Below are positions 26,460-41,474 of a stretch of 64,000 nt of DNA, in pieces. This stretch comes from Patescibacteria group bacterium (lineage in GTDB: Bacteria > Patescibacteriota > Minisyncoccia > Phycocordibacterales > UBA9973): positions 34,502 through 98,501 of the forward strand of contig JAZJXT010000003.1 of NCBI GenBank assembly GCA_040390725.1, written 5' to 3'. Made by a program: the position numbers and the translations under genes. Positions within the stretch are counted from its first letter, which is position 1. Every line of letters begins with the position of its first letter. The notes beneath the pieces were generated by a model. The model saw only the letters and a list, made by a program, of their open reading frames with translations. It did not search any database and had not been told where the DNA came from.

Positions 26460-26657
26460 ATGATCTCAGAAGAAAGAAAAGAAGCCATAAGTGAATTGGC
26501 TAAAGCTGAGCTTGCCAGAAGAGACAAGCAAAATTCCAATGACTTTCACAGAAGTCAATTAGATGCACAGACTGCGTTGGCCAAATTGGTCAATCAAGAA
26601 GAAAAAGATTTTTATCAGGAACAACTTTGTTCTCAAAGAACGCCTGACGGGTGCTAA
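26460..26657 (+). CDS. Small hypothetical protein, 65 aa
   Basis: ORF followed immediately by a hairpin terminator; no homology recognised. Confidence 0.3.
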   Translation: MISEERKEAISELAKAELARRDKQNSNDFHRSQLDAQTALAKLVNQEEKDFYQEQLCSQRTPDGC

Positions 26658-26678: not shown

Positions 26679-26710
26679 TGCCCAACAAAATAGTTGGGCA
26701 CTTTTTTTGT
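26679..26710. terminator. Bidirectional hairpin terminator
   Basis: gcccaacaaaatagttgggc + actttttttg. Confidence 0.6.
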
Positions 26711-26718
26711 TAATTCTG

Positions 26719-26791
26719 TGCGTCCGGTTGGGATCGAACCAACGACCTTATCCTTAAAAGGGATCTGCTCTACCGACTGAGCTACGGACGC
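26719..26791 (-). tRNA. tRNA-Lys (anticodon UUU)
   Basis: Minus-strand GCGTCCGTAGCTCAGTCGGTAGAGCAGATCCCTTTTAAGGATAAGGTCGTTGGTTCGATCCCAACCGGACGCA: 7-bp acceptor stem, D-arm GCTC/GAGC, anticodon loop CTTTTAA, T-loop TTCGATC; CCA not encoded. Confidence 0.9.
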
Positions 26792-26845
26792 GAACTTATA
26801 TATGCGGTCTAATGAACTTTTGTAAGTAGTCAGTTGGATCCGCTA

Positions 26846-26863
26846 CAACTGAGCTACGGACGC
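26846..26863 (-). repeat. Partial duplicate of the tRNA-Lys 5' end (16-18 nt) with adjacent hairpin
   Basis: GCGTCCGTAGCTCAGT repeated 72 nt away from the tRNA 5' end; the sequence between does not fold into a cloverleaf. Confidence 0.6.
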
Positions 26864-26900
26864 GTGTTCTAAAATTATCACATTTTAAGTATAAAATCAA

Positions 26901-28595
26901 TTACCCAACTTCTTGTTGGTAACATTTCTCACAATAAACTATTTCTGGTCTTTCAGGGGCATAGGCTGTGGTGATGGGTGTATTGCATTTCATACAATTT
27001 CTTTTCCATAATTTCATCGGGTTTAGTCGGGAGAAATTATATTTCATTCTGCATTTTTGACAGGAATGAGGTACGGGCATATTCATTTTTCTTAAAAGCG
27101 AAAGTTCCATCAAGCCTATTTTGTATCCGCGATTGCATTCACTGCATTCTATAACTCCATTAAGTATTTCATCATTAGTATCGGAAATTTTATCCGGCAA
27201 ATTCTTAGCATTGATTGTTGTTTTATATTCTATTGGCTGTTCGTCGTACCAAGTAAAGCCCTCTCTTACACATTCTTCTTTTGTTTTTGGAAAAAATTTG
27301 TAGCTAGTAGTTTCATTGTATCCGAATAGGCTCATTTTTAACGGGAAAGTTTCTCCATAAGTCCATACTCTGCCTTGCGGGTCTATGTAGGGATTTTTCT
27401 TCATGTCCTCTATAATTTTTATTTTTAATTTTTCATATTCTTCTTTTGCGTATTCTTTGTTTAAGATGCAGTATTTTTTTCTTTTTAAATTCACGCAACC
27501 GAAATTATTTTTTCCGGCGATAGTCCAAATGGAATATTCTACATCCATACTTTCTGTATAAGCGCAATAAGAGAATTTTACATTACTGACATTTTCTCCG
27601 CTGGAGTGCGCTTCATAAATATTTTCAACATTCGCGCCCCAGCCGGAATAATCATAACAGCCTTTGGCAGGCTCTACAGTGATAAATTGGCAATAACTGC
27701 AATCTTCCGCGCCTTCACAAATATATAACTCTCTAGAATTTTTACATTCATAAATATATTCTCCTGTCGTGTTTACATTTAGAGTACTGCCGGTATATTC
27801 TCGGACTGGTTTTGTCATCCAAAATTCATGTGCTTGTTTTTCAAGTTCTCTTAATTTTATCCAAGAATCCAAACCAAGTTCCTTTATTTTTTTCTCATAT
27901 TCTTCTTTTGAATATTTAACATTAAAAATGCAATACGAAGCTCCGCGCATATTTACACAACCGATGCAATCATTGCAGTTGTAGCAATTTTTAGAAAAAT
28001 AAACATTTACACAATTTCTACATAATTCTGAAAAATATGTTTGATAGCATTTATAAATACCATTTGATTCGTAGCATAATTGTGATTCCCGTGCACGCAA
28101 GCAATCAGATGAGTCTTTCATTTTTAAAAGTATTGAAGAGTTATTTACATTTTCGCAATAATCCGCCCAAAAGGTGAGATAACAATTCCTCAAATACGAT
28201 GCGCCGTTGCAGTATTCAGAATTTATCATTGTTGGAGCGATTACTTCTTGGGCTACCCAAGGGGTTTTTCTAGAGAGCTCATAAATTTGTTCAAAGAAGT
28301 TTTTATTTGGGTCGTAGTCCATAGCGTATTCTGTGCCATCCCAATCATCCGCCCACCAGCAATCAGGGCAATACACTGCCACCGGTACATCTTTGTTGTA
28401 CATTGAAAGAACTTTCTTTTGGCATTTATTGCAGTTCCTCCAATACACATTCCATACGTTGTGTGTGGAAAGCCTGCGCACGATACGACAAATCGAGCAC
28501 CAAGTCGGGTGAGGGACATTTATTTTTTCATAATAAAGCTGGTCACGTTCGTCTATCACGAAGTCATTTTTACAGTTTTGGCATACGCCGTTCAT
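26901..28595 (-). CDS. Cysteine-rich protein (about 10% Cys, dozens of CxxC pairs), function unknown
   Basis: 564 aa; CQNCKN, CSICRIV, CNKCQKK, CPDCWW, CRNCVNV, CYNCNDCIGCVN, CSECNRGY, CQKCRMK, CMKCNTP, CEKCYQQ and others; no enzymatic motif recognised. Confidence 0.6.
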   Translation of the reverse strand: MNGVCQNCKNDFVIDERDQLYYEKINVPHPTWCSICRIVRRLSTHNVWNVYWRNCNKCQKKVLSMYNKDVPVAVYCPDCWWADDWDGTEYAMDYDPNKNFFEQIYELSRKTPWVAQEVIAPTMINSEYCNGASYLRNCYLTFWADYCENVNNSSILLKMKDSSDCLRARESQLCYESNGIYKCYQTYFSELCRNCVNVYFSKNCYNCNDCIGCVNMRGASYCIFNVKYSKEEYEKKIKELGLDSWIKLRELEKQAHEFWMTKPVREYTGSTLNVNTTGEYIYECKNSRELYICEGAEDCSYCQFITVEPAKGCYDYSGWGANVENIYEAHSSGENVSNVKFSYCAYTESMDVEYSIWTIAGKNNFGCVNLKRKKYCILNKEYAKEEYEKLKIKIIEDMKKNPYIDPQGRVWTYGETFPLKMSLFGYNETTSYKFFPKTKEECVREGFTWYDEQPIEYKTTINAKNLPDKISDTNDEILNGVIECSECNRGYKIGLMELSLLRKMNMPVPHSCQKCRMKYNFSRLNPMKLWKRNCMKCNTPITTAYAPERPEIVYCEKCYQQEVG

Positions 28596-28622
28596 TTTTT
28601 GATTATAGCATTTTTATGTATA

Positions 28623-29108
28623 ATGAAGCATATGCAAGAAAACCAAAACATTTTAATACTAAATGACATTCGGAGCGTGGAGAATGTCGGGGCGATGTTT
28701 CGTACGGCTGATGCGGCGGGGATAGAAAAGATTTATTTGGTGGGTGTGACGCCTGCGCCTATTGATAGGTTTGGGCGGAAACGAAATGATTTGGCAAAGT
28801 CGGCGCTCGGAGCGGAAGAATTTGTAAAGTGGGAACAGGCGGAAGATATTTTTTCTTTATTGGAAAAATTAAAAAAAGAAAATTTTAAAATAATTGCGAT
28901 AGAGCAAGATGAAAAGTCTATTGATTATAAAGATATAAAAATAGGGGAGAAGAATGCTTTTTTAATGGGCACGGAAGTTTCTGGAATTCCAAAAGAAGTT
29001 TTAGAAAAATGTGATCTTATTGCTGAGATACCGATGCTCGGCAAAAAAGAATCGCTAAATGTTTCCGTGGCGCTAGGTGTGGCCTTGTTTAGAATGTTGC
29101 AGATTTAA
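28623..29108 (+). CDS. SpoU/TrmH-family RNA 2'-O-methyltransferase
   Basis: …LNDIRSVENVGAMFRTADAAGIEKIYLVG… SPOUT motif 1; motifs 2-3 near the C-terminus (…LMGTEVSGIP…ESLNVSVALGVALF); longer ORF reaches back to 28419. Confidence 0.8.
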   Translation: MKHMQENQNILILNDIRSVENVGAMFRTADAAGIEKIYLVGVTPAPIDRFGRKRNDLAKSALGAEEFVKWEQAEDIFSLLEKLKKENFKIIAIEQDEKSIDYKDIKIGEKNAFLMGTEVSGIPKEVLEKCDLIAEIPMLGKKESLNVSVALGVALFRMLQI

Positions 29109-41310: not shown

Positions 41311-41474
41311 AGATGTATTATATTAGATTTATGAAAAATATCGCTCTTGACAAATTTATGTATTTATATAGACTTATAAATGAATTTCCAGCTTATATAT
41401 TATATTATGCTGGAGCTCAAAAGGAGTTAGCTGAAAATCCTTTAAAGAGTAAGCATGTTCATTAATTTATCGTT

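What the first reader, a model, noticed from the sequence alone, without database searches (positions are those of the whole stretch)
26719..28595. 564-aa cysteine-rich CxxC-repeat protein adjacent to tRNA-Lys and a partial tRNA duplicate
The protein has roughly 10% Cys arranged as dozens of CxxC/CxxxC pairs, implying many zinc-ribbon or knuckle modules or disulfide-rich repeats, with no catalytic motif recognised. Its 3' end abuts a 16-18-nt duplicate of the tRNA-Lys 5' end (GCGTCCGTAGCTCAGT), which is a possible integration scar, plus a hairpin. Giant or medium Cys-rich proteins are a recurring but uncharacterised feature of small-genome bacteria.
Basis: seen in the sequence. Interest (0 to 1): 0.6.

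Follow-up and report, generated by a model that had tools for sequence, protein, structure and literature searches.

The report
Multi-zinc protein of a Patescibacteria-wide family
The gene encodes a soluble protein with zinc-finger modules at both ends, from a very large uncharacterised family of ultra-small (Patescibacteria) bacteria whose other members sit in old tandem arrays next to orphan VirD4/TraD-like ATPases; the nearby tRNA fragment is an unrelated local duplication, not an integration scar.

Summary
The ORF (26901-28595, minus strand, 564 aa), the tRNA-Lys and a 16-17-nt copy of the tRNA 5' end are all real.

The protein has a fixed architecture. An ~80-aa double zinc-finger module (4 CxxC) sits at each end. 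Between them lies a ~375-aa core that is an internal duplication with a 9-residue Cys/Ser register. The core has no match in Pfam or the PDB.

The family is huge: 2,166 clusters at 50% identity with E<=1e-30. It is almost entirely Patescibacteria and is annotated only as "hypothetical".

In other genomes, paralogs form tandem arrays of up to 8 old copies. These arrays interleave, on the same strand, with soluble VirD4/TraD-like ATPases, and the long ATPase form carries the same CxxC-x17-CxxC finger. The link holds both ways: 25/83 family-anchored loci have the ATPase, and 64/80 ATPase-anchored loci have the family. The window's own gene is a solo copy with no ATPase within the 64 kb.

The tRNA fragment abuts the real tRNA (72-nt offset), lies outside the gene and is absent in relatives. 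The integration-scar reading is not supported.

The function is untested. The best guess is a zinc-dependent adaptor or scaffold for these ATPases.

The parts
26901..28595 (-). Complete ORF of 564 aa. A soluble protein with no signal peptide or transmembrane segment, and a member of the Patescibacteria Cys-rich family.
   Evidence: There are full-length homologs at 55-77% identity. Maximum Kyte-Doolittle hydropathy over 19 aa is 0.62.
28353..28589 (-). N-terminal double zinc-finger module (residues 3-81): CxxC-x24-CxxC-x18-CxxC-x17-CxxC.
   Evidence: All 8 Cys are invariant in 119 sequences. There is a weak Pfam zf_Tbcl hit (E 0.001, below cutoff). It is homologous to the C-terminal module (hhalign probability 99.7%, E 4e-26).
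27876..28226 (-). Core half A (residues 124-240). It has 9-residue repeats with Cys/Ser at a fixed register, includes CxxCxxCxxC (residues 204-213), and ends in the motif GCVNxR...YCIFN..YSKEEY followed by a helix.
   Evidence: Cys spacing of 9. C138, C183, C192, C207, C210 and C213 are >=90% conserved. It is homologous to half B (hhalign probability 99.5%, E 5e-23).
27414..27770 (-). Core half B (residues 276-394), a diverged copy of half A that ends in GCVNLKRKKYCILNKEYAKEEY followed by a helix.
   Evidence: A trace of the duplication survives at DNA level: 27422-27473 vs 27884-27935, 73% over 52 nt. C367 and C376 are 92-97% conserved.
27153..27413 (-). Conserved connector domain (residues 395-481), with the motif PY.D..GR.Y.YGEFFP...S.F.YNET and a mixed alpha/beta fold.
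   Evidence: Invariant or near-invariant positions Y403, D405, G414, N427 and W449. pLDDT is 82-96 in the second model.
26916..27152 (-). C-terminal double zinc-finger module (residues 482-560), with the same Cys spacing as the N-terminal module.
   Evidence: C558 is replaced by His in 17/119 sequences, a typical swap for a zinc ligand. There is a weak zf_Tbcl_2 hit here; homolog P0240 passes the Pfam cutoff.
26836..26864 (-). Partial copy of the 5' ~30 nt of tRNA-Lys. It is exact for 17 nt, then degenerate up to the anticodon-stem 5' strand. It lies immediately upstream of the real tRNA (72-nt offset).
   Evidence: Rfam does not score it as a tRNA. The rest of the 72-nt unit is not significantly similar to the tRNA: 57 of 500 shuffles score at least as well.
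26826..26857 (-). Hairpin (11 bp, one bulge) formed by the D-arm part of the tRNA fragment and an inverted copy of it. There is no U-tract.
26718..26791 (-). Intact tRNA-Lys (anticodon UUU).
   Evidence: ARAGORN. Rfam tRNA at 70.5 bits.
26679..26700 (.). Bidirectional terminator-like hairpin just downstream of the tRNA. It probably ends the gene-to-tRNA transcription unit.
28632..29108 (+). Divergently transcribed SpoU-type RNA methyltransferase gene. It is a neighbour only and is not conserved next to the family.
   Evidence: Pfam SpoU_methylase on the called gene in L001. Contexts differ in relatives.

Best explanation
The ORF encodes a soluble cytoplasmic metalloprotein with a fixed architecture. 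A double treble-clef/zinc-ribbon module sits at each end (inferred: 2 Zn each, 4 in all). Between them is a compact core of about 375 aa. The core is an internal duplication of a Cys/Ser-laddered repeat unit plus a connector domain.

The protein is one ortholog group of a very large, ancient, paralog-rich family that is essentially confined to Patescibacteria.

At family level the genes are co-directional with soluble VirD4/TraD-like (FtsK/HerA-superfamily) ATPases and usually adjacent to them. The long form of that ATPase carries the same CxxC-x17-CxxC finger.

My best inference is that these proteins are zinc-dependent adaptors or scaffolds. They would dock, through the shared finger modules, onto or alongside the hexameric ATPases and present or hold its clients. 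The diverged paralogs of an array would serve as specialised subunits. The window's copy would be a detached, solo member of that set.

The tRNA-Lys 5' fragment is a decayed local duplication upstream of the tRNA and has nothing to do with the protein.

Shown: the architecture, the duplications, the conservation, the family size and the genomic linkage.
Inferred: zinc binding, cytoplasmic location, interaction with the ATPase, and the adaptor role.
For: Architecture and duplications: (hhalign probability 99.7% and 99.5%).

Metal ligands:
- The 16 terminal Cys are invariant, with a Cys-to-His swap at C558.
- The CxxC-x17-CxxC domain binds zinc by ICP-MS in Methanosarcina mazei small proteins (PMC12704099).

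Fold:
- The AlphaFold model is confident and compact (pLDDT 85.3, pTM 0.86).
- It has no PDB or viral fold match and no PDB sequence match for the core even at E<=10.

Family size and uniformity: 2,166 representatives at E<=1e-30, nearly all 545-600 aa. At least 585 loci occur in species-representative genomes, almost all labelled Patescibacteria.

Arrays:
- 52 of 83 loci hold 2-8 copies.
- The paralogs are old: median 43% identity within a locus vs 58% to the best member in another genome. 137 of 147 are closer to another genome, and none is >=80%.

Linkage to the ATPase:
- The ATPase is the commonest neighbour, present in 25/83 loci.
- In the reciprocal test, 64/80 ATPase-anchored loci hold the family, and 26/28 for loci >=15 kb. 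All 124 family genes there are on the ATPase strand. 38/60 end within 300 nt upstream of it.

Shared finger:
- The long ATPase hits zf_Tbcl_2 at E 5e-14 and TIGR04272 at 52.7 bits (cutoff 36).
- Its finger aligns to the second finger of both family modules (probability 96% and 91%).

Literature: Patescibacteria carry about 2 VirD4-like T4CP homologs per genome. Only 148 of 5,713 are near virB4, and the authors raise exaptation as a possibility (PMC12102498).

Not mobile: there is 1 partial hit in IMG/VR and none in GenBank phages or plasmids.
Against: - The window itself has no ATPase homolog in 64 kb.
- The window gene's own ortholog group (>=50% identity) is rarely near the ATPase: 4/23 within 5 kb and 1 adjacent. 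For this gene the link therefore rests on family membership only.
- The ATPase-anchored loci come from closely related organisms (ATPase 85-94% identical), so they are not independent observations.
- Genomic adjacency does not show physical interaction.
- The short ATPase form lacks the finger (0/21).
- No experiment, expression data or solved structure exists.
- The window protein's own Pfam finger scores are below the curated cutoffs.
Confidence: 0.4

Rival explanations
1. Nucleic-acid handling factor. The terminal zinc modules would bind DNA or RNA, and the protein would act in DNA uptake, translocation or repair together with the DNA-pumping TraD/FtsK-like ATPases.
For: - The ATPases match TrwB_AAD_bind/T4SS-DNA_transf, and weakly match the DNA-translocating CedD.
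- An extracellular LTD+PKD membrane protein follows the long ATPase in several loci.
- DNA-metabolism genes lie near the solo ortholog group. In the window these are Fpg and RuvA. In close relatives they are a XerC/D-like recombinase and an Exo_endo_phos protein, and HU in L002.
- Zinc ribbons and treble clefs are common nucleic-acid binders (general knowledge).
Against: - The zinc modules are near neutral and the family as a whole is acidic: median net charge -9; N module 0; C module +1.
- There is no hit to any known DNA- or RNA-binding family.
- The neighbouring DNA-repair genes differ from genome to genome, so this may be coincidence.
Confidence: 0.2
2. Metal/redox or chaperone-type protein. 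The conserved core cysteines (C138, C183, C192, C207-x2-C210-x2-C213, C367, C376) would bind extra zinc or an Fe-S cluster. The protein would act as a redox-sensitive holdase, a metal buffer or an electron carrier.
For: - Eight core Cys are >=90% conserved, including a CxxCxxC triad.
- A CutA1-like divalent-ion-tolerance gene lies inside the cluster in 8 loci.
- In one clade the ATPase/Cys-rich cassette lies between dnaK and dnaJ, with DnaJ directly downstream of the short ATPase in 72/74 loci.
Against: - There is no Fer4, radical-SAM, SPASM or metallothionein hit at E<=1.
- Many register cysteines are freely replaced by Ser/Ala/Leu/Val, as expected for buried small residues rather than metal ligands.
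- Half B keeps only two of the cysteines.
- The dnaK-dnaJ context comes from closely related genomes.
Confidence: 0.15
3. Exported cargo or effector. The arrays would encode substrates that the VirD4-like ATPases recruit for secretion to the host cell. This would be analogous to substrate arrays next to FtsK-like EccC/EssC in type VII systems.
For: - Tandem arrays lie next to a coupling-protein-like ATPase.
- Membrane proteins (c23, c29) and a surface LTD/PKD protein occur in some clusters.
- Patescibacteria are commonly host-dependent (PMC12102498).
Against: - There is no signal peptide or disordered C-terminal signal. The extreme C-terminus is a conserved zinc finger.
- A tightly folded protein with at least 4 Zn is a poor secretion substrate.
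- The paralogs are ancient and have a uniform architecture, with no variable toxin-like ends and no recent duplicates.
- The ATPases lack a membrane anchor and are almost never near virB4.
Confidence: 0.1
4. One reading: the gene is cargo of an element that integrated at tRNA-Lys, and the tRNA fragment is the scar.
For: - A non-chance 17-nt direct repeat of the tRNA 5' end lies next to the gene.
- Similarity stops near the anticodon stem, which is a known integrase crossover region (general knowledge).
Against: - The repeat lies between the gene and the tRNA, 72 nt from the tRNA start, so it brackets about 40 nt and not the gene.
- It is a 5' copy, not a 3' copy.
- There is no further copy in 64 kb.
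- There is no integrase, the flanks are housekeeping genes and the GC content is the same.
- The family is vertically conserved and absent from phage and plasmid collections.
- Orthologs sit elsewhere without a tRNA, and tRNA adjacency is found for 5/213 family genes.
Confidence: 0.04

Closest known systems
CxxC-x17-CxxC / zf_Tbcl_2 (PF23477, TIGR04272) and zf_Tbcl (PF13451) treble-clef zinc fingers, for example the small zinc-binding proteins of Methanosarcina mazei
   Same: The CxxC...CxxC spacing and sequence pattern match. Family members (P0240) and the neighbouring long ATPase pass the curated cutoffs. Zinc binding has been shown for the domain type (PMC12704099).
   Different: Those are single-domain proteins of about 40-60 aa, or appendages. 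Here two double modules frame a 375-aa core that has no family assignment. The window protein itself scores below both Pfam cutoffs.
Type IV coupling protein (VirD4/TraD/TrwB) adaptor complexes, for example the zinc-binding DotN in the Legionella DotL complex (from my own knowledge, not tested here)
   Same: A Cys-rich zinc protein is associated with a VirD4-like hexameric ATPase, plausibly as an adaptor for clients.
   Different: There is no sequence or fold similarity to DotN. The ATPases here lack the membrane anchor, score far below the TraD/VirD4 equivalog cutoffs (46-56 bits vs 250-650 bits) and are not near virB4. The partners come as arrays of 2-8 diverged paralogs.
Substrate arrays beside FtsK-like ATPases in type VII secretion (EccC/EssC with Esx/PE/LXG genes; analogy from my own knowledge)
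   Same: The genomic logic is the same: tandem paralogs lie co-directional with an FtsK/HerA-superfamily ATPase.
   Different: The proteins here are large, zinc-rich and uniform in architecture, with no WXG or LXG features. No membrane channel components were identified.
LIM double zinc fingers (CRP, PINCH)
   Same: Two consecutive zinc sites have similar spacing. This is the only sequence hit in the PDB (E 0.0085, C-terminal module).
   Different: The hit is marginal. LIM uses mixed Cys/His/Asp ligands and is eukaryotic. There is no homology outside about 55 residues.
Beta-solenoid repeat proteins (left-handed beta-helix acetyltransferases/gamma-carbonic anhydrases; RTX nonapeptide beta-roll)
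   Same: There is a short-period repeat (9 residues) with a small residue at a fixed register, and short regularly spaced strands in the model. The non-significant Foldseek tail is enriched in left-handed beta-helix proteins.
   Different: All Foldseek E-values are above 1. There is no Hexapep or RTX Pfam hit. The repeat register carries Cys/Ser rather than Ile/Leu/Val or GGxGxD.

Membership tests
zf_Tbcl (PF13451) / zf_Tbcl_2 (PF23477) = CxxC-x17-CxxC (TIGR04272) zinc fingers | Score above the curated cutoff of the family model. | tested here: inconclusive
   The window protein scores 19.4 bits (cutoff 24) and 15.9 bits (cutoff 27). Homolog P0240 scores 32.7 bits on PF23477, above the cutoff, with 2 stretches. 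The modules align to the ATPase finger, which passes both cutoffs.
zf_Tbcl / CxxC-x17-CxxC zinc fingers | Two CxxC pairs about 17-25 residues apart that are invariant, as expected for metal ligands. | tested here: met
   All 16 terminal Cys are 86-100% conserved in 119 sequences, and C558 is replaced by His in 17 of them. The spacings 3/25/3/19/3/18/3 are identical in both modules.
zf_Tbcl / CxxC-x17-CxxC zinc fingers | Actual zinc binding. | not testable with these tools
   Shown only for M. mazei small proteins of the same domain type (PMC12704099).
Radical SAM / SPASM | A CxxxCxxC cluster motif and a Radical_SAM/SPASM model hit. | tested here: not met
   There is no CxxxC in the protein. 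No such hit appears in Pfam or NCBIfam at E<=1.
Ferredoxin-type 4Fe-4S proteins | A CxxCxxCxxxC(P) motif and a Fer4 model hit. | tested here: not met
   The protein has CxxCxxCxxC (residues 204-213), not the ferredoxin spacing. C204 is Leu in 40/119 sequences. There is no Fer4 hit.
tRNA-targeted integrative element / genomic island | A direct repeat of the tRNA (normally its 3' part) that brackets the island. | tested here: not met
   The repeat copies the 5' end, lies 72 nt from the tRNA start, and sits between the tRNA and the gene. No other copy of either tRNA half occurs in 64 kb.
tRNA-targeted integrative element / genomic island | An integrase or mobility genes, plus atypical base composition. 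| tested here: not met
   The neighbours are LysA, SpoU methylase, Fpg, amidase and RuvA. GC is 0.359 vs 0.353 for the window.
tRNA-targeted integrative element / genomic island | Variable presence at the same tRNA locus in relatives. | tested here: inconclusive
   No relative with the same tRNA-Lys context was found. The closest orthologs lie in other contexts without a tRNA.
Type IV coupling protein system (the VirD4/TraD neighbour, not the Cys-rich protein) | Score above the TraD/VirD4 equivalog cutoffs, an N-terminal membrane anchor, and proximity to virB4 or a relaxase. | tested here: not met
   Scores are 46-56 bits against cutoffs of 250-650. No hydrophobic N-terminus is seen in the sequences. 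PMC12102498 reports only 148 of 5,713 near virB4. The Pfam domain-level hits TrwB_AAD_bind and T4SS-DNA_transf do pass.
Known anti-phage defence systems (PADLOC) | A hit to a defence-system protein model. | tested here: not met
   The Cys-rich protein has no hit. The ATPase has only weak mad8/HerA hits.
Left-handed beta-helix (hexapeptide repeat) | A Hexapep model hit or a significant structural match. | tested here: not met
   There is no Pfam hit. The best Foldseek E-value is 1.8.

The most novel reading that the evidence does not exclude
The Cys-rich family is the missing functional partner of the 'orphan' VirD4-like ATPases of Patescibacteria. Together they would form a previously undescribed, lineage-wide ATPase machine that is not a type IV secretion system. 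It would be built from ancient arrays of multi-zinc paralogs (subunits or client-specific adaptors) that dock through a shared CxxC-x17-CxxC finger. The core domain of these proteins would be a new fold.
Probability: 0.3. Interest if true: 0.75.

Novelty: new variant of a known kind. Interest (0 to 1): 0.5.

Why it matters
Patescibacteria have genomes of about 1 Mb or less, yet many devote 5-14 kb of contiguous sequence to old paralogs of this one unannotated protein. That implies an important, lineage-specific function.

A 2025 survey found about two VirD4-like ATPases per Patescibacteria genome. They are unlinked to the type IV secretion genes, and the authors could only suggest that they were exapted.

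The two-way genomic linkage and the shared zinc finger found here give those ATPases a concrete candidate partner. This makes the question testable by pull-downs, metal analysis, and Tn-seq or CRISPRi in the few cultivable strains.

For the window itself the result is more modest. The gene is a solo member of that family, and the tRNA fragment is a harmless local duplication.

Tried and rejected
- Pfam, NCBIfam, PHROGs and PADLOC scans of the protein gave only sub-threshold zinc-finger hits and one function-less PHROG.
- PDB sequence searches gave only marginal LIM hits for the whole-protein profile and nothing for the core-only profile at E<=10.
- Phage, plasmid and IMG/VR searches gave essentially nothing, so I rejected a mobile-element origin.
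- Searches for a paralog or an ATPase homolog elsewhere in the window found none.
- Rfam on the spacer shows only the true tRNA. The fragment is not a tRNA or any other known RNA.
- Five literature searches found no description of the family. PMC5424206 was checked and is irrelevant.
- I looked for informative domain fusions among long family members. The extra length is due to mis-called starts or an insert in the C-terminal module, not to added domains.
- I considered polymorphic toxin or arms-race arrays and rejected them, because the paralogs are ancient and uniform.
Full report
**1. Observation**

The region holds a 564-aa ORF on the minus strand (26901-28595). An intact tRNA-Lys(UUU) lies at 26718-26791. 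The 16-mer GCGTCCGTAGCTCAGT occurs exactly twice in the 64-kb window: at the tRNA 5' end (26776-26791) and 72 nt upstream of it (26848-26863). None is expected by chance, and the exact repeat is 17 nt.

The protein has 38 Cys (6.7%), 13 CxxC and no CxxxC. The hairpin exists (26826-26857, 11 bp with a bulge). It has no U-tract, and the spacer as a whole does not fold better than shuffles (z = -1.24).

**2. Anatomy of the protein**

The cysteine spacing at the N-terminus (3/25/3/19/3/18/3) is repeated exactly at the C-terminus.
- Profile-profile comparison shows that residues 3-81 and 482-560 are homologous (probability 99.7%, E 4e-26).
- The core is itself a duplication: residues 124-240 match 276-394 (probability 99.5%, E 5e-23). 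A trace of this is still visible in the DNA.
- Each terminal module is a pair of CxxC...CxxC fingers of the Pfam zf_Tbcl and zf_Tbcl_2 types. The window protein scores just under the cutoffs. Homolog P0240 passes.
- All 16 terminal cysteines are conserved across 119 diverse members, and one is swapped for His in 17 sequences. This is what metal ligands do.
- The CxxC-x17-CxxC domain type has been shown to bind zinc in M. mazei small proteins (PMC12704099).

In core half A, cysteines fall every 9 residues. Many of these positions are Ser/Ala/Leu/Val in paralogs, so they behave like buried small residues of a repeat fold. Eight core cysteines are >=90% conserved: C138, C183, C192, C207, C210, C213, C367 and C376. 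These could form further metal sites (inference).

The protein has no hydrophobic segment or signal peptide and is slightly acidic.

With a 119-sequence alignment AlphaFold gives a confident compact model (pLDDT 85.3, pTM 0.86).
- Foldseek finds nothing significant in the PDB.
- It finds only tiny phage 'zinc-ribbon' proteins in BFVD, matching the terminal modules.
- The core profile finds no PDB sequence at E<=10.
- There is no Pfam, NCBIfam or PADLOC family for the core.

**3. The family**

The window protein has more than 5,000 database relatives. The best 120 are full-length at 55-77% identity, and all are 'hypothetical' from Patescibacteria/Paceibacteria. A profile search of 1.84 billion representatives gives 2,166 clusters at E<=1e-30. 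The best 150 are almost all 545-600 aa. In species-representative genomes at least 585 loci were found. Nearly all are labelled as Patescibacteria lineages, with a few probably mis-binned. The family is essentially absent from viral contigs, phage genomes and plasmids.

**4. Genomic context: the unexpected part**

I called and clustered ORFs in 83 family-anchored loci.
- There are 213 family genes. 52 loci hold 2-8 copies in tandem on one strand.
- The paralogs are old. Median identity is 43% to the nearest neighbour in the array and 58% to the best member in another genome. 137 of 147 are closer to another genome, and none is >=80%.
- There are no domain fusions.

By far the commonest neighbour (25/83 loci) is a soluble ATPase with TrwB/VirD4/TraD and HerA-type domain hits.
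- It comes in a short form (about 500 aa) and a long form (650-920 aa).
- The long form carries a CxxC-x17-CxxC finger that passes the Pfam and TIGR04272 cutoffs.
- That finger aligns to the second finger of both modules of the Cys-rich family (probability 96% and 91%).
- The finger is present in 13/16 long forms and 0/21 short forms.
- Other recurrent cluster members are a CutA1-like protein, a cytidylyltransferase-like protein, DUF5674, two membrane proteins without a family, and an LTD+PKD surface protein after the long ATPase.

In the reciprocal test I fetched 80 metagenome loci with the short ATPase.
- 64 contain the family, and 26 of the 28 loci >=15 kb do.
- All 124 family genes there are on the ATPase strand.
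- In 38 of 60 loci with room upstream, a family gene ends within 300 nt of the ATPase start.
- In that clade the order is dnaK ... long ATPase - 1-3 Cys-rich genes - short ATPase - dnaJ.
- These loci come from related organisms (ATPase 85-94% identical), so they are not independent. The family-anchored set, however, spans many candidate phyla.

A 2025 survey reports 5,713 VirD4-like T4CP homologs in 2,918 Patescibacteria genomes. Only 148 are near virB4, and the authors suggest possible exaptation (PMC12102498). It names no partner in the parts I read. By NCBIfam these ATPases are far below the TraD/VirD4 equivalog cutoffs.

**5. The window's own gene**

This gene is a solo copy.
- There is no paralog and no ATPase homolog in the 64 kb.
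- Its ortholog group (>=50% identity) is seldom near the ATPase: 4/23 within 5 kb.
- Its context is not conserved:
  - In the window it is SpoU methylase/Fpg/RuvA on one side and tRNA-Lys/LysA on the other.
  - In the closest orthologs it is rpsO - XerC/D-like recombinase - Exo_endo_phos.
  - In others it is RNase Y/ClpP/trigger factor or HU.

The functional inference for this gene is therefore family-level guilt by association.

**6. The tRNA fragment**

The copy begins exactly 72 nt upstream of the tRNA start, so the 72-nt unit abuts the real gene.
- Similarity is exact for 17 nt and degenerate as far as the anticodon-stem 5' strand. After that it is indistinguishable from shuffles.
- Rfam does not score it as a tRNA.
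- No copy of the tRNA 3' half exists elsewhere in the window.
- The fragment lies between the gene and the tRNA, so it cannot delimit an element that contains the gene.
- There is no integrase and no compositional shift.
- Relatives lack the arrangement.
- An independent assembly of the same organism shows both copies (L001).

The simplest reading is a decayed local tandem duplication. Its diverged 3' part now lies directly upstream of the tRNA; by eye it holds TTACAA-17 nt-TATATA, which could be the tRNA promoter, but the promoter scan did not list a site there. A terminator-like hairpin follows the tRNA.

**7. Mechanism**

Shown:
- the architecture and the duplications;
- ligand-like conservation of the terminal cysteines;
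- the family's size and taxonomic restriction;
- the ancient tandem arrays;
- the two-way linkage to VirD4/TraD-like ATPases;
- the shared finger domain.

Inferred:
- about 4 structural Zn per protein;
- a cytoplasmic location;
- action as a zinc-dependent adaptor or scaffold with the hexameric ATPases, with diverged paralogs as specialised subunits.

Rivals:
- Nucleic-acid handling. The DNA-pump-like ATPase and the DNA-repair neighbours favour it. The near-neutral or acidic modules argue against it.
- A metal, redox or chaperone role. The conserved core Cys, CutA1 and the dnaK/dnaJ context favour it. There is no cluster-family hit.
- Exported cargo. The array-plus-ATPase logic favours it. The folded zinc protein, the lack of a signal and the ancient uniform paralogs argue against it.
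- The integration-scar idea, which is essentially refuted.

**8. Verdict**

The gene itself is an ordinary member of an extraordinary but unstudied family. Three things would interest a specialist: the array organisation, the linkage to the orphan VirD4-like ATPases through a shared zinc finger, and a core domain with no detectable relatives among solved structures.

I found no description of this in the searchable literature. That library is incomplete, however, and the fold could not be compared with AFDB.

Noticed in passing
window 41421-41455 (+): A match to the Rfam DUF805b RNA motif (RF02914) scores 40.4 bits, above the gathering score of 35.6.
   Followed up: no
window 26679-26700: A bidirectional terminator-like hairpin (8 bp, 5 GC, T-runs on both strands) lies between tRNA-Lys and a convergent 65-aa ORF (26460-26657).
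   Followed up: partly
window 27422-27473 vs 27884-27935: A 52-nt direct repeat at 73% identity lies inside the ORF. It is a DNA-level trace of the internal duplication of the core domain (the ...YCI[FL]N..Y.KEEYE... motif).
   Followed up: yes
L065, L072, L025, L046, L085 (family-anchored loci): These loci hold seven or eight family ORFs in tandem (L085: six), full-length or cut at a locus end, within 12-18 kb of a Patescibacteria contig. That is a very large share of a genome of about 1 Mb.
   Followed up: yes
L088-L167 (ATPase-anchored metagenome loci): The short VirD4/TraD-like ATPase is 85-94% identical across 80 metagenome contigs. It is followed directly by dnaJ in 72/74 loci, with dnaK upstream of the cassette in many. 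The ATPase/Cys-rich cassette therefore sits inside a dnaK-dnaJ neighbourhood.
   Followed up: partly
L041 6618-7964, L063 2982-4289 (cluster c23) and cluster c29: Two membrane proteins with no Pfam family (about 440 aa and about 190 aa) recur just upstream of the ATPase genes. An LTD+PKD surface protein (c22) recurs just after the long ATPase. These may be further parts of the same system.
   Followed up: partly
L168-L171 (closest orthologs, 73-77% identity): The ortholog of the window gene lies directly downstream of an Exo_endo_phos (ExoIII-like) gene and a XerC/D-like recombinase gene, after rpsO. A second family paralog lies 1-2 kb further on in two of the four loci.
   Followed up: no
L010 (labelled Burkholderiales), L071 (labelled Gammaproteobacteria), P0169 (labelled Lentisphaeria): Family members occur on contigs assigned to non-Patescibacteria MAGs. 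These are most likely mis-binned Patescibacteria contigs rather than true occurrences.
   Followed up: no
window 28596-28631: Only 36 nt separate the divergent start codons of the Cys-rich gene and the SpoU methyltransferase gene. Both promoters must therefore overlap coding sequence.
   Followed up: no
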